Shown here in pieces: positions 1 to 8,054 of a stretch of 8,054 nt of DNA. Location of the stretch: the UHGV virus genome UHGV-0324772. The stretch is one strand, 5' to 3'. The position numbers were made by a program, and so were the translations under genes. The notes below the pieces were generated by a model. It was not told the origin of the DNA. It saw nothing but the letters and a program-made list of their open reading frames with translations, and searched no databases. The first letter of the stretch is position 1; each line of letters opens with the position of its first letter. This DNA comes from a virus.

Positions 1-156
1 CAGAGCATCAACATTTAAGACACCTGTCTTATAGACCTGAGCCTGTGTTTTTTTCGCGGTGTCGATTTGTACAGCGGAAACATAAACCGCTTTACCTACG
101 CTCGAACCATCCCATACCACCAGTGCACCTGTTGCATCTTCTGGCAATACGGCTCT
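1..156 (-). CDS. Head decoration protein gpD-like fragment (partial; runs off the window start, N-terminal side closed by an in-frame stop at 157-159)
   Basis: Minus-strand frame open from 156 to 1 translates to LPEDATGALVVWDGSSVGKAVYVSAVQIDTAKKTQAQVYKTGVLNVDAL, which aligns by eye with lambda gpD ([36 protein letters not shown]...). No ATG start; not in the ORF track because it is partial. Confidence 0.35.
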
Positions 157-286
157 TCAGGGGATTGTAGACTATGGCGGTATTCAGGATCCGGAGCTAA
201 TCCGAATGGGGCTGACTAAAGCCGAACTTGCACCGAAAAACTATATTGTGCCTGGTGATCCGGCTATTGAATATGTGCAGACACAT

Positions 287-1051
287 TCAGCACCACAGCC
301 AATACCGGCCCGCATCAATCGAATCACCAAGGTCTTTAAGAGCCGTTTCCAGTTCGGAATTAGAACCACGACGGGTATCCAGAGCCTCTTTTATCGCTCT
401 GAATGAACGGTATTTCTTCCATACATTACCGCCCATAATGATGATATTAGTGACGCCCTCACTAAATTCTGCGTAGCTCTCAATATCATCATTTGGATCA
501 AAAGTTTCTTTATCCTTACCTGACCACTCAGCACCGCCAGACTGAGTGATGATATTTTGTGGTTTAATATTCCAGTCCAGCTCATAACGTTCAATACCAT
601 CGCCCTCAATGATATTTTTCCCCGTTGTGATTGCCTGAACGGCAAGCCATTCAATACGTGCACGAATAGCTTTAGCCTGATTTACAATCGCCTGTTTAAC
701 TTTAATATTACGCGCTCCAAAAGCATTGTATTGCTCAGGTGATACACCAGCAGGGCGCACAGCTAACTTATTTGGATCAATGCTGCTTTTCGGCTTCATA
801 TAGCCTGGACGAATTGTTTTTGATTCGTACCCTTCGTCACGTGAAACTTTACTACCCACCATAGGAGAACAAAACGCTGCAATTGGGATATTTGGATCGT
901 CGATTGTATCAAGAATAATATCGCGCGATTCAAACATTACCGAGCGAGTAAAAAACAAACTGGTAAACAACGCATTTAGTTGTTTTTGTACATCTACAGC
1001 ATTAACCACCTGTACAAGCTGGGTAGGCGAATATAAATCAACCATACGCAT
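287..1051 (-). CDS. Lambda gpE-like major capsid protein, C-terminally truncated (about 255 aa versus about 341 aa in lambda)
   Basis: Track ORF 287..1219. Residues from MRMVDLYSPTQLV onward align along the length with lambda gpE as I recall it (LFFTRS/LFFRES, PGYMKPK/PGYVKPK, ITQSGGAEWS/ITQSGGTEWS, DTRRGSNSELETALKDLG near-identical). Start set at ATG 1045 or 1051, with AAGAGG 6 nt upstream of 1045; the 58 upstream codons look like a stop-less extension. ORF stops at 287-289 right after the KDLG motif, so about 90 C-terminal residues are absent. Confidence 0.8.
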   Translation of the reverse strand: MRMVDLYSPTQLVQVVNAVDVQKQLNALFTSLFFTRSVMFESRDIILDTIDDPNIPIAAFCSPMVGSKVSRDEGYESKTIRPGYMKPKSSIDPNKLAVRPAGVSPEQYNAFGARNIKVKQAIVNQAKAIRARIEWLAVQAITTGKNIIEGDGIERYELDWNIKPQNIITQSGGAEWSGKDKETFDPNDDIESYAEFSEGVTNIIIMGGNVWKKYRSFRAIKEALDTRRGSNSELETALKDLGDSIDAGRYWLWC

Positions 1052-2241: not shown

Positions 2242-2686
2242 TTAATTTTTGCTATCGTCATTAGTGACCGATACACATGATGGCATCCAGTCTTCTGATT
2301 CCTCCGTCAGTGTCACGTTTGAACGCAAACCGTGCTTCGTTTTCCGTTTCATATACTCCCTGCCATATTCCGCCATTGCCCCCGGCATATCTTTACCGAA
2401 GCGCGTCAGTGTTACAGGTTTACCAAACCCATGTGCCCTCATATAAGCCAGATAGGCATGATAGAGATACCTGCGTGGGCTGAATGGCACAATTTCAGCA
2501 TTACCCACTAACAGGCCATCACACATTACCGATGCCATGAGATAGCCGCAGAAGTCCACCAGCGAATCCCCCTCTCGCTTTATCGCCAGTGCTTCTTCAG
2601 ATTTCTGCTGCTCATATAACAGGCGTCTGGCTTCGTCCTGATCAGCAAACCGTGTAAGCAGATGGCGAATCACTACCGCCAGCTCA
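2242..2686 (-). CDS. P4 alpha-type primase/helicase, C-terminal region (fragment; track ORF 2242..2673 with GTG start)
   Basis: Translation ELAVVIRHLLTRFADQDEARRLLYEQQ... continues the helicase-domain end seen on the other strand at 2976-3013. Frame is open upstream to a stop at 2707-2709. Ends at stop 2242-2244 next to the iterons. Confidence 0.65.
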
Positions 2687-2687
2687 A

Positions 2688-3015
2688 GTGGTTGGCTTTT
2701 CGCTGATTATCATGCCGGATATGACCCGCTACGCTGGTGATGGGGCAGGGATTAAGGCCATTACAGGCGGTGACAAGGTGGCAATTGACCCGAAACACAA
2801 AGCCCCCTATTCAACGCGTATTCCGGCAGTAGTGCTGGCGGTTAACAATAACGCCATGTCATTCAGTGACCGCAGCGGGGGGATCTCACGTCGTCGGGTG
2901 ATATTCAATTTTTCGGAAGTTGTACCGGAGAACGAACGCGATTCGATGCTGGCGGAAAAAATAGAAGGTGAGCTGGCGGTAGTGATTCGTCATCTGCTTA
3001 CACGGTTTGTTTTTT
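2688..3015 (+). CDS. P4 alpha-type helicase-domain fragment on the opposite strand to the rest of alpha (probable misassembly or inversion)
   Basis: Track ORF 2688..3017. ITGGDKVAIDPKHKAPYSTRIPAVVLAVNNNAMSFSDRSGGISRRRVIFNFSEVVPENERDSMLAEKIEGELAVVIRHLLTRF matches the region after Walker B in P4/D5-type helicases. Its 3' end (2976-3013) is the reverse complement of 2649-2686 with one mismatch. The stop codon is formed partly by adapter bases. Confidence 0.6.
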
Positions 3016-3073
3016 AATGATACGGCGACCACCGAGATCTACACTCTTTCCCTACACGACGCTCTTCCGATCT
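3016..3073 (+). other. Illumina TruSeq universal (P5) adapter, 58 nt, exact: sequencing/assembly artefact
   Basis: AATGATACGGCGACCACCGAGATCTACACTCTTTCCCTACACGACGCTCTTCCGATCT read directly at 3016-3073, preceded by TTTTT (3011-3015). Confidence 0.97.
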
Positions 3074-4064
3074 ACCAGCAGAGGGGGATTCGCTGGATGA
3101 ATAACTGCCAGTCGTACCGGTTCGCCAGCACCATGAATAATGCCGCCAGTACGCGATCTGCCTTGCGGTCATTCTCAGCCACCGAACGGCGCAACCACTT
3201 CCAGAAATTCGGCGCATGTGTTGCCAGCGTTTCCCCCTCTGCTGGTGGGCTGAAAGGTAATTCACTGGCAATTAACAACCAGTCGTTTTTGTTATGCTCC
3301 CGAAAATTACCAGTTCTGGTATCAAATACCCCGTTACTGAATCCAATCAGGTTACGGGCTGTATTCCCCATTACAGGCAAACTTAACTTCATGGTATCTA
3401 CCGCCGATTTAATAGCGTTCTGCGAATAGCTGATCTCCGCATCAATGAAAATCTGCGCCATAGCACGCTGTAACTCTTTATCCTGAACCGGCTCCCATAC
3501 AACGCCGTTGTAATGATGAACGGTGTCAGAGTCGGCATTGATTGCCAGTTCGCCGCCGTAATGTGCAAGGAGAACTTCACCGCGCTGGCTGGCCCCCATC
3601 TGATTCAACGCCAAAGATGAAGCACGCTCGTCATTTTTGCGCTCTGCCTTCTTCACTGGCAGTTCAATCACCAGACTTTCCCCATGCTCCGCTTCAGCTT
3701 TTAGGCCGACAAGGCGCGGAGTCCAGTCTTCAGGCTCTCGATCAACAAAGCTACGGTAACAACGTGCTTCCTTTACGCCTGCAATAGCAAGTAATGTCGC
3801 AACCTTCGTCAGACTTTTCTCTGCAATCTTTCCGGCACGATAAACACGCACATAATGACGGCCTTCATCGATAATTTGCATATCATCCAGGTTTTCCAGT
3901 TGTTCCGTACCCAGAATGACTGGTGGTGTATCATCTGCTGCAATATGCTTACCTGCCCATTCATTCCATTCTTTTGCATGGCTCCAGGCATCACTGCCAG
4001 CAAAAATGATGACTTCCGTCATTTTGTCGCGCGGTTGGTATTTTAAGTTCGGAGCACGTTTCAT
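3072..4064 (-). CDS. P4 alpha-type primase/helicase, N-terminal primase region (reading frame cut off at the adapter junction)
   Basis: Track ORF, 330 aa. Call rests on continuity with the alpha helicase and C-terminal fragments, position in the operon and the adjacent P4-type iterons; an early EVIIFAGSDAW segment is primase-like but not a confident motif match. The terminal stop (3072-3074) is created by adapter bases, so the real protein continues. GGAGG RBS 6 nt upstream; start overlaps the upstream stop (ATGA at 4061-4064). Confidence 0.75.
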   Translation of the reverse strand: MKRAPNLKYQPRDKMTEVIIFAGSDAWSHAKEWNEWAGKHIAADDTPPVILGTEQLENLDDMQIIDEGRHYVRVYRAGKIAEKSLTKVATLLAIAGVKEARCYRSFVDREPEDWTPRLVGLKAEAEHGESLVIELPVKKAERKNDERASSLALNQMGASQRGEVLLAHYGGELAINADSDTVHHYNGVVWEPVQDKELQRAMAQIFIDAEISYSQNAIKSAVDTMKLSLPVMGNTARNLIGFSNGVFDTRTGNFREHNKNDWLLIASELPFSPPAEGETLATHAPNFWKWLRRSVAENDRKADRVLAALFMVLANRYDWQLFIQRIPLCW

Positions 4065-4348
4065 TTGTTACCTCCGGCAACTAACATTGCCCGAATTTTA
4101 CGGATATAGCCTGCGGCACGCCTCTGATTATCTGTCTTGCAATTTTTTACCAGAATGAAATCTCTTTCGAACTGCTGACGCGGCATAACACATTCAAAAT
4201 CATAACCATCACGCAAATAAGAGACACGACGATCATCAACCGAAATAATCTTTACCCGATAGCCATAGCTGTCTTTGAAAATATCCCCAAGGCTGATTTT
4301 TGAATGAGTTTGACCGCTGGCAATAAAGCCAGAAAATTTATTTTTCAT
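4061..4348 (-). CDS. Hypothetical small protein (95 aa), alpha-operon member
   Basis: Track ORF; same strand; stop overlaps the alpha start codon (translational coupling). No motif recognised. Confidence 0.5.
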   Translation of the reverse strand: MKNKFSGFIASGQTHSKISLGDIFKDSYGYRVKIISVDDRRVSYLRDGYDFECVMPRQQFERDFILVKNCKTDNQRRAAGYIRKIRAMLVAGGNK

Positions 4349-4351
4349 TTT

Positions 4352-4576
4352 TTATTCTCCGGTATAGCTCTGGTCGTGTATTTTTATAGCTTCATCCAGC
4401 TCTTTGATGACAGGATCAAGTAACGTAATTAACGCTCCAGCTAAATTAGCATCCCGTTCATCGTGTTCCGCATTTGTTGTCCCATCAAGCCAGGTTGATA
4501 AGATTTCTCGCATATTTTTGCCACAAACGAGCGCGTTTTCAGCATGTGTCAGCACTTTAAAATAAAGATCATTCAT
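4352..4576 (-). CDS. Hypothetical small protein (74 aa), alpha-operon member
   Basis: Track ORF; start overlaps the upstream ORF end by 8 nt; acidic, helical-looking sequence. Confidence 0.45.
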   Translation of the reverse strand: MNDLYFKVLTHAENALVCGKNMREILSTWLDGTTNAEHDERDANLAGALITLLDPVIKELDEAIKIHDQSYTGE

Positions 4577-4934
4577 GGCACACCTCCTGACGAATACGGG
4601 CGGCGAATATCATCACGTAGCCAGTTGGGGATTGCAGCCGGGCTTCCTGTTCGCTGGCGGCCTCGATGTGTATTACGCGTGGTTGTGCGGTGCTCAGGGC
4701 GATAAAACGCCAGATGAAATTGTTTTCGCATTTCTGAATAAACAGCGTGTTTTCTTCACGCCCTTTCCAGAAAGCCGCAGTATAGCCCATCTCCTTAACC
4801 ATCTTGCGGGCATCAACCAGCGTGTCAGCGGCTACATGTACCGTAGTTGCTCCATCTGCCATGCGGTCGTGGTGTAGTGCCAGAAAGGTGTATATAAATT
4901 TAGGGTGAGTTTGGGTATGCTGTGTTCCAGCCAT
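4569..4934 (-). CDS. Hypothetical protein (121 aa), first gene of the alpha operon
   Basis: Track ORF; GAGG 8 nt upstream of ATG 4934; sits downstream of the predicted minus-strand promoter. Confidence 0.5.
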   Translation of the reverse strand: MAGTQHTQTHPKFIYTFLALHHDRMADGATTVHVAADTLVDARKMVKEMGYTAAFWKGREENTLFIQKCENNFIWRFIALSTAQPRVIHIEAASEQEARLQSPTGYVMIFAARIRQEVCHE

Positions 4935-4996
4935 AATCGTTACCTCATTTAACGGGTTGGTTAGACGCCTCGATGGTGTTCCCGCACGTCGAGGCG

Positions 4997-5076
4997 TTGC
5001 ATTTTCCTAAACACGTATGTAATGTGTCATCACACATTAACACATTACATCGGGTGTAATTGACGTGTCAACACAC
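4997..5076. promoter_or_regulatory. Divergent promoter region with repeated operator-like half-sites (ACACATTA / TGTAATGT)
   Basis: Plus strand: TTGCAT (4997-5002), 17 nt, TAATGT (5020-5025). Minus strand: TTGACA (complement of 5066-5071), 18 nt, TAATGT (complement of 5042-5047). Inverted repeat atgtaatgtgt (5017-5027) / acacattacat (5040-5050), plus acacatta (5032-5039) and gtgtaatt (5054-5061). Confidence 0.4.
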
Positions 5077-5244
5077 AAAAATCAAAGACGTGGTAATCCT
5101 CCGTTCCAGTTTCGGTTAGATCCTGAGTTGAGGGAGTTGATGGAGCAAGCACAGCAAGTAGATGGAGACGAATCTTTAGCAGCCTGGATTAAAAGGATTA
5201 TTCGCAAAGAACTACAGCAACGCGGATATGAAGTCAAAATTTAA
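5065..5244 (+). CDS. Small ribbon-helix-helix (Arc/CopG-like) putative transcriptional regulator; start uncertain (GTG 5065 or ATG 5140)
   Basis: Below the track's length cut-off. Frame open from 5041 to TAA at 5242-5244. Translation ...PPFQFRLDPELRELMEQAQQVDGDESLAAWIKRIIRKELQQRGYEVKI has a beta-strand then two helices, as in RHH proteins. Divergent from the alpha operon, convergent with the TIR-like gene. Confidence 0.4.
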   Translation: MSTHKNQRRGNPPFQFRLDPELRELMEQAQQVDGDESLAAWIKRIIRKELQQRGYEVKI

Positions 5245-5257
5245 CAGATAATATTTC

Positions 5258-5290
5258 ATATAGAGCCATTTATCTCGAATGGCTCTATAT
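5258..5290. terminator. Perfect 13-bp stem hairpin between convergent genes (putative bidirectional terminator)
   Basis: atatagagccatt (5258-5270), loop tatctcg, aatggctctatat (5278-5290); followed on plus by gattttta. Lies between the RHH stop (5244) and the TIR-like stop (5320). Confidence 0.55.
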
Positions 5291-5319
5291 CTATGCAGAT
5301 TTTTAGTTCAAAGAATTTA

Positions 5320-6195
5320 CTAAACTGCGTAACCAGTAGCTCGCAAGTCTTTAATAATGCTATATGCTACTTCTTCAATAGAAGAATTGAATTTTTTATA
5401 AATAAGACCATTCAAATCACTTGGAATCACTACATCACCTGTGTATAGACAACAAACCTTAGAACGACCTAATTTCCCTACGAAATAACCAAATTCAAAC
5501 ATTACATTTGGTCGTGCACGTAACTCCTTTTCTCTTTCATTATCAGGTAAAGAGTCTTGCGGCAATAAATAAGCGATCTCATCAGGTGTGAGAAGAATGA
5601 ATGCGAAACCAACATCACTATTTGCTTCAAATTTCTCAATCACTGTCTGGCCTACATCAGCTTGCCTATGGAGAACAATAGGTTCTAAGCCAATTTCTCT
5701 TAAAAACACCTCTAAGTTGGTTTTTGATATTTCATCTCTTCCATGAACAATGAATACTTTTTTGGTTTTTACCGCTGAACTCTGAGGTACTTCAATATTT
5801 TCTTCAACAACTTTGGAAGATATAGGAATTAACTCCAGTCGCTCCATAATCGACTCTAGTTTTCTTATCTTACTCTGGAGTTTACGCGTAGCCTCACTGA
5901 TTTTTTCTCCCAAGGAAGTCTCGTACAATGAAATAACACCAAATGCCCCACCTTCATATTCTTCTTTGAAATCATCATTTGTGAAACTACGCTTCAGTAG
6001 CTCAGCATTAAAATCACTCCATTTCCTGTAATCAGCATTAAACAGCTCCAAGTCACTATTGTTATTTATGCTTTTCTGTAGGAGTAATAATCCTTTTTGA
6101 ATTCTGTCTTGAATTTTATCTTTCATATCATCTCTTGATATGATTAGTTCACAAACAGTTTTCATTTCTACGCTATTTTTTTTTCGAGTAGCCAT
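5320..6195 (-). CDS. TIR-like (COG4271/PF10137-type) domain protein with an unassigned N-terminal domain; candidate anti-phage NADase effector
   Basis: Track ORF, 291 aa. Residues about 145-291 carry the pattern I associate with TIR-like nucleotide-binding proteins: KKVFIVHGRD, GLEPIVLHRQ, TVIEKFE, VGFAFILLTPDE, RARPNVMFEFGYFVGKLGR, IPSDLNGLIY. N-terminal about 140 aa is helical with no TM segment or known motif. Good RBS (AAGGGTG, 5 nt, ATG). Visibly AT-rich compared with flanks. Confidence 0.7.
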   Translation of the reverse strand: MATRKKNSVEMKTVCELIISRDDMKDKIQDRIQKGLLLLQKSINNNSDLELFNADYRKWSDFNAELLKRSFTNDDFKEEYEGGAFGVISLYETSLGEKISEATRKLQSKIRKLESIMERLELIPISSKVVEENIEVPQSSAVKTKKVFIVHGRDEISKTNLEVFLREIGLEPIVLHRQADVGQTVIEKFEANSDVGFAFILLTPDEIAYLLPQDSLPDNEREKELRARPNVMFEFGYFVGKLGRSKVCCLYTGDVVIPSDLNGLIYKKFNSSIEEVAYSIIKDLRATGYAV

Positions 6196-6231
6196 GCTTA
6201 CACCCTTTTATATAACAATTTACTACAACAT

Positions 6232-6459
6232 TTATGTCCGCCATTCCCCCCTAATCCATGCCTGAACTTCGGAGAGACGGTAAGCTACCGCAGTAGCGCC
6301 AATCTTGATCCGCTTAGGAAATTTTCCTTCCTTCTCCAGCTTCCAGCGTGTGCTGTTCGCAAGAGTGGTTAGCTCCCGACATTCTTTCTCACGGATCATA
6401 CGATCAATGTTAGGAATGTACTCCAGACCCTTTTTATCAACAATTGCCATTTTTTTCAT
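6232..6459 (-). CDS. alpA: AlpA/Vis-family small DNA-binding regulator or excisionase-like protein
   Basis: 75 aa; the central segment resembles AlpA-family (PF05930-type) prophage regulators; lies 1 nt downstream of the integrase stop on the same strand. Confidence 0.7.
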   Translation of the reverse strand: MKKMAIVDKKGLEYIPNIDRMIREKECRELTTLANSTRWKLEKEGKFPKRIKIGATAVAYRLSEVQAWIRGEWRT

Positions 6460-6460
6460 G

Positions 6461-7696
6461 TTAACCAGCCTTTTGTTTGAGGATTGTCACTTTTGAATCA
6501 GCACCTGCGATGCTATTGAGATATGTAGTCCAGAGTTCCAGAGCATCCAGTTTTTTAGCCATAAACTTACTCCGATTGTAAACACCTGCCACGCCAGGTA
6601 GCGCATGGCCTAACAGTTGTTCTACTACATAAAATTCAACACCGAGATCACTTAGATGAGTAGATAGCGTTCTTCTAAGGTCGTGTAGTGACCATTGTTT
6701 TTCATGGCCCAAACGTTTACCGATTTTCCCCCCAATCTTGCTTACGCTTTCTCTAATTCGCAGACTTCCCAGCACATAACCAGTATGTTTTGTCTCTTCG
6801 TGAACATCCGTTACCCACTGTCGTAGAATTTCAGGTACTGGTCTGACGATTTCAACACCAGTTTTTGAGTGATCTTTTGGTACAGTCCAAACCCAACTTT
6901 CGAGATCCCATTCGCTCCATTCTGATAATCGGGCTTCACTCATTCGACATCCAAATACTGTACAAAGCACAAACATTTTTCGCGTGTATTCAGACATTAG
7001 TTTTAAATCAGGCTCGACAAAAATTGCCTTCCAGAGCTGGCCGAGTTCGGCTTCATCCAGAACCCGATCCCGCTTACCTGCAATCTGCCCCACATCACTC
7101 ATGCGCAAATCCTTTAAAGCATCACACGTCGCGTACTGGCGTACCCGACAAAAACGAAGAGCTAATTTAGTGTCAGAAAAAACATACGCCGCCATAACTG
7201 GTGCATTACGTTTAATTCGGTCAAAACAGTCCAGCCATTCATATAGGTGAGTGTCATTTACGGGCAAATGACCGATATAGGGAAAGATATGCTTTCGAAA
7301 TCTGCCAAGCGTTACAGCATGAGTTTTACGACGCACCTTACAGTAATTTTCATACCAGTAATTTAGTGCATCCTCCACTGTGACCGGCTTTAAGCGTTCT
7401 TCAGCCTGAATCTTAATCTGGATACGCGGATCACGTTTGTCAGCCAACCAACCACGGCACTCGTCGCGCTTTTCCCTTGCCTGTTTGAGTGACATATCAG
7501 GATATTTACCCAACGTTAGCCAGACCGGAGCAGCCCGGCCACCTGCTAACCTGTAGAAGAAAACAAAGCTCACAGCCCCTTTAGTACTCACACGAATAGA
7601 AAGCCCCTTTCCATCAGCAATGGTGATCTGCTTTTCTCTGGGTTTCCCCAGATATCCTTTAAGCGCTTTGTCGCTCAGTTTGTTCTCGCCAGCCAT
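6461..7696 (-). CDS. int: Tyrosine site-specific integrase, P4-like family
   Basis: Track ORF 6461..7747; likely start at ATG 7696 (MAGENKLSDKALKGYLGKP...ADGKGLSIRV resembles the P4-type N-terminal arm-binding domain). C-terminal catalytic signatures HDLRRT and LLGH...GVYNRS (Tyr). Confidence 0.9.
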   Translation of the reverse strand: MAGENKLSDKALKGYLGKPREKQITIADGKGLSIRVSTKGAVSFVFFYRLAGGRAAPVWLTLGKYPDMSLKQAREKRDECRGWLADKRDPRIQIKIQAEERLKPVTVEDALNYWYENYCKVRRKTHAVTLGRFRKHIFPYIGHLPVNDTHLYEWLDCFDRIKRNAPVMAAYVFSDTKLALRFCRVRQYATCDALKDLRMSDVGQIAGKRDRVLDEAELGQLWKAIFVEPDLKLMSEYTRKMFVLCTVFGCRMSEARLSEWSEWDLESWVWTVPKDHSKTGVEIVRPVPEILRQWVTDVHEETKHTGYVLGSLRIRESVSKIGGKIGKRLGHEKQWSLHDLRRTLSTHLSDLGVEFYVVEQLLGHALPGVAGVYNRSKFMAKKLDALELWTTYLNSIAGADSKVTILKQKAG

Positions 7697-7828
7697 TTTT
7701 AGCCCCAAAAAGCAATACAAGCTGCAATACAGAGATGATTGCAACACACAGATAACGAGGAAAATTCAGTGAAAGCGCCAGATAAACTTATTCTTTATTA
7801 TCAAAAGATTAAGTGTAAAAACCAGCAA

Positions 7829-8054
7829 CTACACGAAAGCCTCAGAAAGCCATGCTAAGTGCTTCGGCTTGACATATCCCGGTGTAAATTCAGAGGTGGA
7901 GCCGCCACGGGAGCGGATAACCTCACCGGAAACAATCGGCGAAACGTACAGCGCCATGTTTACCAGTCCCGGAATTTGTGAGAGATAGACTTTCTCCGTG
8001 GTGAAGGGATAGCTCTCACGGAAAAAGAGACGCAGAAACAGCGGATCAAACTTA
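7829..8054 (-). pseudogene. Lambda gpE (major capsid) N-terminal fragment, truncated; start lies beyond the window end
   Basis: Minus-strand translation from the window edge, KFDPLFLRLFFRESYPFTTEKVYLSQIPGLVNMALYVSPIVSGEVIRSRGGSTSEFTPGYVKPKH, matches lambda gpE residues about 17-82 as I recall them, then runs into 9 unrelated codons and a stop at 7829-7831. Confidence 0.7.

What the first reader, a model, noticed from the sequence alone, without database searches (positions are those of the whole stretch)
5320..6195. Candidate undescribed defence gene: TIR-like domain fused to an unassigned N-terminal domain in the satellite cargo position
The 291-aa ORF between alpA and the alpha-operon switch has a C-terminal domain (about 145-291) with the COG4271/PF10137-type TIR-like pattern, including NVMFEFGYF with a putative catalytic Glu at residue 234. 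The N-terminal 140 residues are helical with no motif I can place. Bacterial TIR-like domains are NAD+-degrading abortive-infection effectors in Thoeris, CBASS and Pycsar, and P4-like satellites and PICIs are known to carry anti-phage cargo in variable hotspots. I do not recognise this architecture as a named system.
Basis: partly seen in the sequence, partly recalled or inferred. Interest (0 to 1): 0.8.

Follow-up and report, generated by a model that had tools for sequence, protein, structure and literature searches.

The report
Untested TIR defence gene on satellite
A phage satellite embedded in an E. coli prophage carries, in a slot where related satellites carry other anti-phage genes, a 291-residue protein that joins an unclassified helical domain to a TIR enzyme domain of the NAD-destroying kind; it is very likely a one-gene anti-phage suicide switch, already listed as an untested candidate (PADLOC PDC-S35) but never studied.

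Summary
ORF 5320..6195 (-) encodes 291 aa, and residues 146-270 match PF10137 (CAP12/Pycsar TIR; E 1.2e-33). E234 lies in an invariant R-x-N-V-x-F-E-F-G motif that aligns with the FEFG/LEFG motif of solved TIR-STING and PycTIR chains. The predicted fold is closest to TIR-STING (Foldseek E 4.5e-7). Residues 16-124 form a confident helical bundle with no Pfam, PDB-sequence or significant fold match.

The interpretation needs two corrections:
- The architecture is already catalogued. It matches PADLOC candidate PDC-S35 almost full length (E 6.9e-67), one of 145 untested candidates, and PHROG 16442 (function unknown).
- The element is not P4-like. It is a helper-embedded PICI ("11capE" type) inserted in the capsid gene of a lambdoid prophage.

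The alpA/Arc-like-repressor slot is a real cargo hotspot: near-identical flanks hold an Abi protein, DUF2971+SWIM or other genes instead.

New here: the N-domain is a swappable N-terminal module fused elsewhere to TIR_2, GGDEF, a DpnII-type REase, a HEPN-like Ymh domain and EAD adaptors. The plan (helical bundle, flexible linker, TIR) mirrors B. subtilis SpbK without sequence similarity.

Best reading: a single-protein abortive-infection NADase, activated when the N-domain senses a phage component and clusters the TIRs. No function has been tested.

The parts
5320..6195 (-). Complete gene for the 291-aa N-domain/TIR protein (identical to RefSeq WP_000235578.1); stop codon at 5320-5322
   Evidence: ORF list; PF10137; PADLOC PDC-S35 E 6.9e-67; PHROG 16442 E 3.8e-133; at least 99% identical in 37 of 5,426 complete E. 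coli genomes
5824..6150 (-). N-terminal helical-bundle domain (residues 16-124), unassigned; proposed sensor/clustering module
   Evidence: AlphaFold models pLDDT 86-96. No Pfam, PDB or fold match. Conserved positions include R31, K34, G35, W59, F62, N63, E65-L67, F71, E79, Y80 and the helix-4 run S115 I116 .. R119 .. E121 L122. 883 representative clusters, always N-terminal, with swapped C-terminal effectors.
5761..5823 (-). Variable, disordered linker (residues 125-145)
   Evidence: pLDDT below 50 for residues 131-142; 15% identity to distant homologs against 47% for the N-domain and 75% for the TIR; length varies in the alignment
5323..5760 (-). C-terminal TIR domain of the CAP12/Pycsar type (residues 146-291)
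   Evidence: PF10137 E 1.2e-33; Foldseek best matches TIR-STING 9lmq E 4.5e-7 and SfSTING 7un8 E 4.9e-5; profile matches to Cap12 and PycTIR chains
5494..5496 (-). Codon of E234, the putative catalytic glutamate within R228-x-N-V-x-F-E-F-G236
   Evidence: Invariant in 27 homologs; aligned with the Glu of FEFG in 9lmq and 7un8 and of LEFG in 8jsj; lies in the helix at residues 229-242 of the model
6203..6207 (-). Ribosome-binding site AAGGG, 7 nt upstream of the ATG
   Evidence: Read directly from the sequence
5258..5290 (.). 13-bp perfect hairpin between the convergent TIR gene and the Arc-like gene; no U-tract, possibly a bidirectional terminator or RNA-stabilising element
   Evidence: RNA fold -19.8 kcal/mol, z -3.2; not called by the consensus terminator scan
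6232..6459 (-). alpA (75 aa), immediately upstream and co-oriented; left border of the cargo slot
   Evidence: PF05930 E 6e-15; conserved border in satellites with other cargo
6461..7696 (-). Tyrosine integrase of the HE-PICI (411 aa as annotated in complete genomes; the mechanical ORF extends to 7747)
   Evidence: PF13356 and PF00589; annotation in L002; integrase clade described in PMC10111431
5065..5244 (+). 59-aa Arc-like / YlcI-YnfO family gene, convergent with the TIR gene; right border of the cargo slot
   Evidence: PHROG 228 Arc-like repressor E 1.6e-5; RefSeq annotation; present at the same place in K. oxytoca and in variant E. coli satellites
4569..4934 (-). Icd-like / repressor-like gene that opens the satellite's replication-zone operon
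   Evidence: RefSeq annotation; PHROG 1743 and 6196

Best explanation
The gene encodes a self-contained, single-protein abortive-infection system carried as exchangeable cargo by a helper-embedded PICI satellite.

Proposed mechanism:
1. In uninfected cells the protein is inactive, because TIR NADase active sites form only between neighbouring TIR domains.
2. During infection by a competing phage, the N-terminal helical bundle binds a phage-made, probably multimeric, component or otherwise self-associates.
3. The flexible linker then allows the CAP12/Pycsar-type TIR domains to stack into an ordered oligomer or filament.
4. E234 becomes catalytically competent, NAD+ is hydrolysed, and the infected cell stops supporting phage growth. 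This protects the clonal population, and with it the satellite and its helper prophage.

Shown here: the domain identities, the conserved Glu motif, the TIR-STING-like fold, the single-gene nature, the location in a cargo hotspot, and the modularity of the N-domain.

Inferred: the anti-phage role, NAD+ as substrate, activation by clustering, the N-domain as sensor, and the identity of the trigger.
For: Effector identity:
- PF10137 at E 1.2e-33.
- The best fold matches are TIR-STING filament structures.
- The RxNVxFEFG motif aligns with Cap12 and PycTIR.
- TIRs of this Pfam family act as NADases on oligomerisation (SfTIR-STING, TirC).

Defence context:
- Near full-length match to PADLOC candidate PDC-S35, derived by guilt-by-embedding in defence systems.
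- The alpA/ylcI slot holds an annotated Abi protein, DUF2971+SWIM, or HicB-linked genes in satellites whose flanks are 96-98% identical.
- The gene's GC is 0.35 against 0.45-0.47 in the flanks.
- The same slot is occupied by 76-90% identical homologs in K. oxytoca, Citrobacter and variant E. coli HE-PICIs, including one with a different replication module.

Single gene: there is no conserved neighbour across satellite, Pseudomonas, Plesiomonas, Aeromonas and metagenomic contexts.

N-domain as input module:
- It is always N-terminal.
- It is fused in other proteins to TIR_2, GGDEF/Cas10-palm, DpnII-MboI REase, Hypoth_Ymh, EAD1/EAD7 and SieB.
- Those partner domains match PADLOC effector models Aga_Helical-REase, Aga_HEPN, PD-Lambda-3_B and a CBASS TIR effector.
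- It diverges faster than the effector: 47% against 75% identity, with a 15%-identity linker.

Precedent: SpbK has the same plan and is activated when its N-domain docks on a phage portal dodecamer and clusters the TIRs.
Against: - No experiment exists for this family. PDC systems are explicitly untested, and no paper mentions PDC-S35 or WP_000235578.
- The TIR part of the model is only moderately confident (pLDDT about 57-88 per block).
- Some homologs sit alone among housekeeping genes rather than in defence islands.
- The N-domain has no detectable similarity to SpbK's N-domain or to any known sensor, so the sensor role is argued from architecture and fusion patterns only.
- No promoter of its own was predicted, so expression may depend on alpA or helper late transcription. 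That would make it a late-expressed satellite gene rather than a constitutive sentinel.
- TIR domains can make signalling molecules or act on other substrates.
Confidence: 0.6

Rival explanations
1. The TIR domain is a signal generator rather than the killer. On activation it makes a cADPR-type or other NAD-derived messenger that switches on an effector encoded elsewhere, a Thoeris-like logic with an unlinked partner.
For: Bacterial TIRs often produce signalling molecules. SpbK also produces N1-cADPR besides ADPR. The N-domain is also fused to GGDEF/Cas10-palm cyclase domains, which are signal generators.
Against: No conserved neighbouring effector appears in any of nine contexts. The domain belongs to PF10137, whose characterised members (TIR-STING, TirC) deplete NAD+ directly. 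The ThsB_TIR family PF08937 is not matched. A horizontally mobile single gene that depends on an unlinked partner is unlikely to spread across Enterobacteria, Aeromonas, Pseudomonas and Burkholderiales.
Confidence: 0.1
2. The C-domain acts on a substrate other than NAD+. The TIR fold is shared with nucleoside 2-deoxyribosyltransferase and DNPH1-type N-glycosidases, so it could degrade nucleotides or nucleic acids.
For: The Foldseek list includes DNPH1 (8os9) and a nucleoside deoxyribosyltransferase (4mcj) at weak E-values. One N-domain fusion protein has a weak Nuc_deoxyrib_tr hit.
Against: The much stronger sequence and fold matches are to NAD-cleaving TIR-STING and PycTIR. The motif around the Glu is the CAP12/Pycsar one.
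Confidence: 0.1
3. The gene serves the satellite's own life cycle rather than immunity against other phages. It might be an addiction or stabilisation toxin, or a modulator of host metabolism during helper induction, expressed by read-through from helper late transcription via int-alpA.
For: The gene is co-oriented with and 36 nt downstream of alpA, with no predicted promoter of its own. HE-PICI genes are proposed to be transcribed by helper late read-through.
Against: Close full-length homologs occur outside satellites, in chromosomal variable regions and as lone insertions. The slot is filled by unrelated genes, including an annotated Abi protein, in sister satellites, so no cargo is needed for the satellite cycle. 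No antitoxin-like partner is present.
Confidence: 0.1
4. The protein is an inactive or decayed TIR relic with no current function.
For: No functional data exist. Only 37 of 5,426 E. coli genomes carry it.
Against: The reading frame is intact with an RBS. The catalytic motif is invariant and the TIR is 75-81% identical across distant genera. Thousands of full-length homologs exist.
Confidence: 0.03

Closest known systems
PADLOC phage defence candidate PDC-S35 (Payne et al., bioRxiv 10.1101/2024.01.29.577857)
   Same: Near full-length HMM match (E 6.9e-67; residues 39-291 against profile positions 10-257 of 264), and it is a single-gene candidate. This is the family the window protein belongs to.
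   Different: Nothing in architecture. PDC-S35 is only a computational candidate, one of 145 untested, with no name, mechanism or publication text that I could find.
SpbK (YddK) of Bacillus subtilis ICEBs1
   Same: The plan and the carrier type are the same: an N-terminal helical bundle, a flexible linker of about 20 residues and a C-terminal TIR, as a single gene on a mobile element. SpbK is a clustering-activated NADase triggered by the phage portal binding its N-domain.
   Different: No detectable sequence similarity in either domain. SpbK does not appear among the top 50 fold matches. The TIR here belongs to the CAP12/Pycsar family. The N-domain here is longer (about 110 against 94 residues). 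The trigger is unknown. The host is Gram-negative and the carrier is a phage satellite rather than an ICE.
Cap12 / TIR-STING (CBASS effector; 7un8, 9lmq)
   Same: The closest solved TIR domain by sequence and by fold, with a shared RDNVxFEFG-type motif. It is an NADase activated by filament formation.
   Different: The window protein has no STING domain, no CD-NTase operon, and the opposite domain order (TIR is N-terminal in Cap12, C-terminal here). NCBIfam Cap12 models score 42 and 35 bits against a cut-off of 450.
PycTIR (Pycsar effector; 8jsj)
   Same: The same Pfam TIR family and the same domain order, with a C-terminal TIR.
   Different: The PADLOC PycTIR model matches only the TIR part (E 9.8e-8). 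There is no pyrimidine cyclase gene nearby, and the N-domain is unrelated.
Helper-embedded PICI, '11capE' type (Mageeney et al. 2023, PMC10111431)
   Same: [quoted passage not shown] The TIR gene lies in what that paper calls the 'dynamic zone'.
   Different: That paper does not mention TIR, cargo or abortive infection, and uses 'defense' once. The defence-hotspot reading of the alpA/ylcI slot is made here.

Membership tests
Pfam PF10137 CAP12/Pycsar-type TIR domain | Domain HMM match above the gathering threshold | tested here: met
   116.1 bits against a cut-off of 24.7, E 1.2e-33, residues 146-270 covering profile positions 1-118 of 119
Pfam PF10137 CAP12/Pycsar-type TIR domain | Conserved glutamate in the (R)xNVxFEFG motif | tested here: met
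   E234 is invariant in 27 homologs, aligns with the FEFG/LEFG Glu of 9lmq, 7un8 and 8jsj, and lies in the helix at residues 229-242 of the model. That this motif Glu is the catalytic residue (E84 in SfSTING numbering) is from my own recollection; I could not confirm it in the library.
Pfam PF10137 CAP12/Pycsar-type TIR domain | TIR (flavodoxin-like) fold closest to solved members | tested here: met
   Foldseek top hits are 9lmq (E 4.5e-7) and 7un8 (E 4.9e-5), probability 1.0
Pfam PF10137 CAP12/Pycsar-type TIR domain | NAD+ hydrolase activity on oligomerisation | not testable with these tools
   Requires biochemistry
PADLOC PDC-S35 candidate system | Match to the PDC-S35 protein HMMs over most of the length | tested here: met
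   PDLC05005 E 6.9e-67 (residues 39-291 against 10-257 of 264); four further PDC-S35 models at E 1e-60 to 1e-40
PADLOC PDC-S35 candidate system | Single-gene system with no obligatory partner | tested here: met
   Nine genomic contexts show no shared neighbour
PADLOC PDC-S35 candidate system | Demonstrated anti-phage activity | not testable with these tools
   The PDC set is described as untested. No paper text on PDC-S35 was found.
CBASS effector Cap12 (TIR-STING) | Full-length equivalog match including the STING domain | tested here: not met
   NCBIfam NF050171 and NF050172 score 42 and 35 bits against a cut-off of 450, and only residues 221-277 match
CBASS effector Cap12 (TIR-STING) | Adjacent CD-NTase gene | tested here: not met
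   The neighbours are alpA, int and an Arc-like gene
Pycsar effector PycTIR | Full-length PycTIR model match and an adjacent pyrimidine cyclase | tested here: not met
   The PADLOC PycTIR model matches only the TIR part (residues 144-273 against profile positions 151-263 of 288, E 9.8e-8). No cyclase is present in the window or in related loci.
Thoeris ThsB | ThsB-type TIR (PF08937) with a linked ThsA-type effector | tested here: not met
   No PF08937 hit and no linked effector gene
SpbK-like single-protein TIR defence | N-terminal helical bundle, flexible linker, C-terminal TIR, encoded as a single gene on a mobile element | tested here: met
   Models, linker divergence and HE-PICI location, compared with the SpbK description
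SpbK-like single-protein TIR defence | Sequence homology to SpbK | tested here: not met
   No SpbK chain among PDB sequence hits even at E up to 10, for the full protein and for the N-domain profile. This assumes the SpbK entries are in the 2026 copy.
SpbK-like single-protein TIR defence | Activation by a phage structural oligomer binding the N-domain | not testable with these tools
   Needs escape mutants, co-expression toxicity or pull-downs
Helper-embedded PICI (carrier element) | int + alpA + primase, co-oriented and inserted within a late gene of a lambdoid prophage | tested here: met
   Split major capsid gene fragments flank the element in L001, L002 and L011-L014. The prophage terminase, portal, protease and decoration genes lie upstream.
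   None of these appear among the Pfam hits or annotations. The element instead carries lambda-type capsid E and decoration genes and sits in a lambdoid prophage. Only the D5-type primase and the Icd-like gene resemble P4/P1 modules.

The most novel reading that the evidence does not exclude
The unassigned N-terminal helical bundle is a widespread, so far unnamed phage-sensing or clustering module. It defines a superfamily of single-protein abortive-infection systems in which one input domain is combined with at least six output types: CAP12-type TIR, TIR_2, a DpnII-type nuclease, a HEPN-like Ymh domain, GGDEF/Cas10-palm cyclase, and EAD adaptors. Several of these outputs need induced proximity to work. 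In the helper-embedded PICI the TIR version would guard both the satellite and its helper prophage by sensing a conserved multimeric component of competing phages, and identifying that trigger would reveal a new sensing principle.
Probability: 0.3. Interest if true: 0.65.

Novelty: new variant of a known kind. Interest (0 to 1): 0.45.

Why it matters
If confirmed, this would turn an anonymous database candidate (PDC-S35) into a working defence system that is only 291 residues long, easy to study in E. coli, and naturally carried by a satellite living inside its helper prophage. It would show that the SpbK logic of clustering a TIR through an N-terminal sensor has arisen independently with the CAP12/Pycsar type of TIR in Gram-negative bacteria.

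It would also establish the alpA/ylcI 'dynamic zone' of helper-embedded PICIs as a defence hotspot, analogous to the hotspots of P4 and classical PICIs. The fusion census of the N-domain gives a set of natural effector swaps that could be used to find the trigger once and then transfer the finding to several other effector classes.

The practical consequence is modest: about 0.7% of complete E. coli genomes carry this exact gene.

Tried and rejected
- Literature searches for 'PDC-S35', 'WP_000235578', 'PF10137', 'COG4271/TIR-like domain' and 'PICI + TIR + NADase' found no study of this family. The supplements held for the PADLOC preprint do not contain the string PDC-S35.
- SDIC1 of Serratia was considered and rejected: its TIR is N-terminal, it is a two-gene system, and it acts by membrane depolarisation.
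- DUF4062 TIR-like systems (Swarozyc, Evangelion) were considered and rejected because they are a different Pfam family; there is no DUF4062 hit.
- The consensus scan found no promoter between alpA and the gene and no canonical terminator. The hairpin after the gene lacks a U-tract.
- I could not confirm the residue number of the SfSTING catalytic Glu in the library.
- The P4-like framing was rejected in favour of HE-PICI.
Full report
**1. The observation**

The window contains the ORF exactly as described: 5320..6195 on the minus strand, 291 codons, ATG start. An AAGGG ribosome-binding site lies 7 nt upstream of the ATG, and the alpA stop codon lies 36 nt upstream. Downstream, between this gene and a convergent 59-aa gene, there is a 13-bp perfect hairpin at 5258-5290 (-19.8 kcal/mol, z -3.2).

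The stretch 3097-7586 of the window is 100% identical to a complete E. coli chromosome, so the finding is not affected by the assembly artefacts seen further left in the window (section 9). The gene's GC content is 0.35 against 0.45-0.47 for the neighbouring satellite genes, which marks it as acquired cargo.

**2. The two domains**

Residues 146-270 match Pfam PF10137 (CAP12/Pycsar effector TIR domain) at E 1.2e-33 and 116 bits against a threshold of 24.7, covering the whole profile. An alignment of 27 full-length homologs reaching down to 56% identity shows an almost invariant TIR domain. It includes R228-x-N230-V-x-F233-E234-F-G236. A profile of that alignment matches the PDB chains of two TIR-STING proteins (Cap12; 9lmq, 7un8) and PycTIR (8jsj) across this motif, with E234 on the Glu of FEFG/LEFG.

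An AlphaFold model (mean pLDDT 74) gives an alpha/beta domain with E234 in the helix at residues 229-242. Its best structural matches in the PDB are the TIR-STING cryo-EM structures (E 4.5e-7 and 4.9e-5, probability 1.0), followed by SARM1 and other TIRs.

The N-terminal part (residues about 16-124) is predicted with high confidence as a bundle of three long helices and one short helix (pLDDT 86-96). It has:
- no Pfam hit;
- no PDB sequence hit, best E 0.1;
- nothing significant by Foldseek, best E 0.49.

Residues 125-145 form a disordered linker that varies in length.

**3. What family it is**

The protein is not uncatalogued. PADLOC-DB has five models for a single-gene 'phage defence candidate' called PDC-S35. 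The best covers residues 39-291 at E 6.9e-67. The source paper derived 145 such candidates by 'guilt-by-embedding' in BREX, DISARM, type I RM and Hma loci and states that they are untested. I found no text on PDC-S35 itself.

PHROGs has a full-length family of unknown function, phrog_16442 (E 3.8e-133). RefSeq calls the identical protein WP_000235578.1 'TIR domain-containing protein' or 'nucleotide-binding protein'.

The family is large. More than 4,600 database proteins match, and all of the best 120 are near full length, with 57-100% identity, from Klebsiella, Citrobacter, Plesiomonas, Aeromonas, Pseudomonas and Burkholderiales.

It is not a CBASS Cap12: NCBIfam scores are 42 and 35 bits against a cut-off of 450, and there is no STING domain and no CD-NTase. 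It is not a PycTIR: only the TIR part matches and there is no cyclase. It is not a ThsB.

**4. The carrier and the slot**

In complete genomes the gene lies in an element of about 11 kb. The gene order is int, alpA, TIR, an Arc-like/YlcI gene on the other strand, then icd-like, DUF4222, a D5-type primase, SSB, a lambda-E-type major capsid gene, a head decoration gene, an AlpA-like gene, a small terminase and a terminal cargo region.

The whole element is inserted inside the major capsid gene of a lambdoid prophage. The two fragments of that gene flank the element, and the prophage's terminase, portal, protease and decoration genes lie just upstream. This is the published 'helper-embedded PICI' of the 11capE type (PMC10111431), not a P4-like satellite. 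The TIR gene sits in what that paper calls the dynamic zone, between the integration and replication zones. The paper does not mention TIR or cargo.

The gene is present at 99% identity or more in 37 of 5,426 complete E. coli genomes.

A search with int-alpA-TIR-ylcI-icd as query shows that sister satellites with 96-98% identical flanks, inserted at the same capsid-gene site, carry different genes between alpA and the Arc-like or icd genes:
- an annotated phage abortive-infection protein (L011);
- DUF2971 plus a SWIM protein (L012);
- a 179-aa hypothetical protein (L013);
- a HicB-like gene plus two hypothetical genes (L014).

Conversely, homologs of the TIR gene at 76-90% identity occupy the same slot in K. 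oxytoca, in a variant E. coli HE-PICI, and in a Citrobacter HE-PICI with a different replication module. The slot is therefore a true exchange hotspot, and the TIR gene moves as a unit.

**5. Single gene or system?**

More distant homologs (57-61% identity) are found in several settings:
- in chromosomal variable regions next to an nSTAND-like protein, an HNH protein and DUF1963 (Pseudomonas);
- near a large deaminase and DUF6602 (Plesiomonas);
- as a lone insertion among TCA-cycle genes (Aeromonas);
- next to a two-component system (metagenome).

No neighbour is shared, so the protein most likely works alone. The mixed contexts also mean that the defence-island signal is suggestive but not uniform.

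**6. The N-domain is a swappable module**

A search of 1.84 billion representative proteins with residues 1-145 alone found 883 clusters at E up to 1e-3. In the best 150, the domain is always N-terminal and sometimes duplicated in tandem.

79 of the 150 carry the PF10137 TIR. Others carry TIR_2 (PF13676), GGDEF/Cas10-palm, effector-associated domains EAD7 and EAD1, a DpnII-MboI-type restriction endonuclease domain, Hypoth_Ymh, SieB or DUF3467. Several have C-terminal regions with no assignment.

The C-terminal parts match PADLOC effector models: Aga_Helical-REase (REase part only), Aga_HEPN, PD-Lambda-3_B, and a CBASS TIR effector. This pattern of one constant N-terminal domain combined with many known defence effectors is what is seen for input domains of single-protein defence systems.

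Within the family, the N-domain diverges faster than the TIR. Identity to distant members is 47% for the N-domain, 75% for the TIR and 15% for the linker. That fits a sensor under diversifying pressure tethered to a conserved enzyme.

Two of the commonest partners depend on induced proximity. TIR NADase active sites form between two TIR domains, as described for SpbK. GGDEF cyclases work as dimers, which is established knowledge and was not tested here. In the GGDEF fusions the last conserved helix of the N-domain (KIRKLESIMERLELIP in the window protein) ends within about 15 residues of the cyclase domain. That suits a domain controlling oligomeric state. This last point is inference.

**7. 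Mechanism proposed**

By analogy with characterised relatives, I propose that the protein is an abortive-infection NADase. TIR-STING and the amoeba TirC, both PF10137-type, become NADases when they oligomerise into filaments.

SpbK of B. subtilis ICEBs1 has the same plan: a 4-helix bundle at residues 1-94, an 18-residue linker and a TIR at residues 113-266. It is activated when its N-domain docks onto the clip domains of the phage portal dodecamer, and the resulting clustering lets the TIR domains form the BE interface that builds the active site.

For the window protein the steps would be: (i) it is latent in uninfected cells; (ii) the N-domain binds a phage-derived, probably multimeric, component or is otherwise driven to self-associate; (iii) the TIR domains stack; (iv) NAD+ is hydrolysed through E234; (v) growth arrests or the cell dies before the phage completes its cycle.

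Shown: the domains, the motif, the fold, single-gene status, hotspot location and modularity. Inferred: every functional step. The trigger cannot be named from sequence.

Because the satellite depends on its lambdoid helper's portal, terminase and tails, the trigger is more likely to come from competing phages than from the helper. That too is inference.

Expression is an open point. There is no predicted promoter between alpA and the gene. Transcription may come from the alpA promoter or, as proposed for HE-PICI genes generally, from helper late read-through.

**8. Comparison and novelty**

As a kind of system, a mobile-element-borne single protein with a helical sensor domain tethered to a clustering-activated TIR NADase is known from SpbK. 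As a family, this one differs from SpbK in both domains at the sequence level: there is no similarity even at E up to 10. It uses the CAP12/Pycsar TIR type, lives in Gram-negative bacteria, and has an N-domain shared with many other effectors.

It has already been flagged computationally as PDC-S35 but has never been tested or described. I therefore rate it a new variant of a known kind. 'Unvalidated and unnamed' is accurate.

**9. Other observations**

The left part of the window is a chimeric assembly. Segments 142-321 and 2687-3009 are inverted relative to complete genomes. An exact Illumina TruSeq universal adapter sits at 3016-3073, and short reference segments are missing. As a result the primase, capsid and decoration genes look broken in the window although they are intact in complete genomes.

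The satellite has a second variable cargo region at its far end. It holds DUF262+HEPN, an Abi-family protein, FRG+DUF3892 or DUF2971 in different genomes.

**10. Verdict**

- Confidence about 0.6 that the gene is a single-protein, clustering-activated NADase defence.
- About 0.75 for an anti-phage role of some kind. This second figure is my own estimate.
- Interest 0.45. A specialist would find it expected rather than surprising, but it is a compact, tractable and untested system. The N-domain fusion network is a useful lead.

Noticed in passing
window 2687-3096 (adapter at 3016-3073): An exact Illumina TruSeq universal adapter (AATGATACGGCGACCACCGAGATCTACACTCTTTCCCTACACGACGCTCTTCCGATCT) is embedded in the sequence, next to a 323-bp segment of the primase gene that is inverted relative to complete genomes. 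The D5-type primase therefore looks split into three ORFs (3072..4064 -, 2688..3017 +, 2242..2673 -), although it is one intact 606-aa gene in the complete genome. This is a chimeric-assembly artefact, not biology.
   Followed up: yes
window 1-321: There is a second fold-back artefact. Window 142-321 is inverted relative to the reference (L001 6892-6713), and short reference segments are missing, so the 3' end of the satellite capsid gene and the decoration gene are scrambled in the window.
   Followed up: yes
window 7748-8054; L001/L002 flanks: The whole satellite is inserted inside the major capsid gene (lambda E homolog) of a lambdoid prophage and is co-oriented with the late operon. The window's right end is the att junction plus the N-terminal capsid fragment. 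This matches the published helper-embedded PICI '11capE' type (PMC10111431). The satellite carries its own capsid E and decoration homologs.
   Followed up: yes
L001 474-2190; L002 3665-4426; L003 18305-19662; L008 15488-16393 (beyond the left end of the window): There is a second variable cargo region at the far end of the satellite, after the small terminase gene. It holds DUF262+HEPN, an 'abortive infection family protein', FRG+DUF3892 or DUF2971 in different genomes, so it is probably a second defence hotspot of HE-PICIs.
   Followed up: partly
proteins P0184, P0168 (N-domain + GGDEF), P0270 (N-domain + DpnII-MboI REase), P0178 (N-domain + Hypoth_Ymh), P0137 (N-domain + EAD7), P0180/P0191/P0209 (tandem N-domains), P0236/P0237 (N-domain + about 320 unassigned residues): The unassigned N-terminal domain of the TIR protein recurs as an N-terminal module on many other effector or adaptor domains. 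Some of those proteins have large C-terminal regions with no Pfam or PADLOC match, and these could be further unrecognised effectors.
   Followed up: partly
L001 14321-16936: In strain E04, the genome most identical to the window, the satellite integrase is interrupted by an IS66-family element (ISCro1). IS200, IS5 and IS3 copies sit in the satellite's late region. In the window and in L002 the integrase is intact.
   Followed up: no
L012 1063-1419; L018 8965-9318: A small SWIM zinc-finger protein (117-119 aa) takes the place of the Arc-like/YlcI gene next to the cargo slot in some HE-PICIs, once beside DUF2971 and once beside the TIR gene. It may be an alternative regulator or part of the cargo.
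   Followed up: no
plasmid collection: Proteins with a related TIR domain (below 60% identity, partial coverage) occur on 1,157 plasmid records, mostly from Klebsiella and Escherichia. I did not examine what architecture they have.
   Followed up: no
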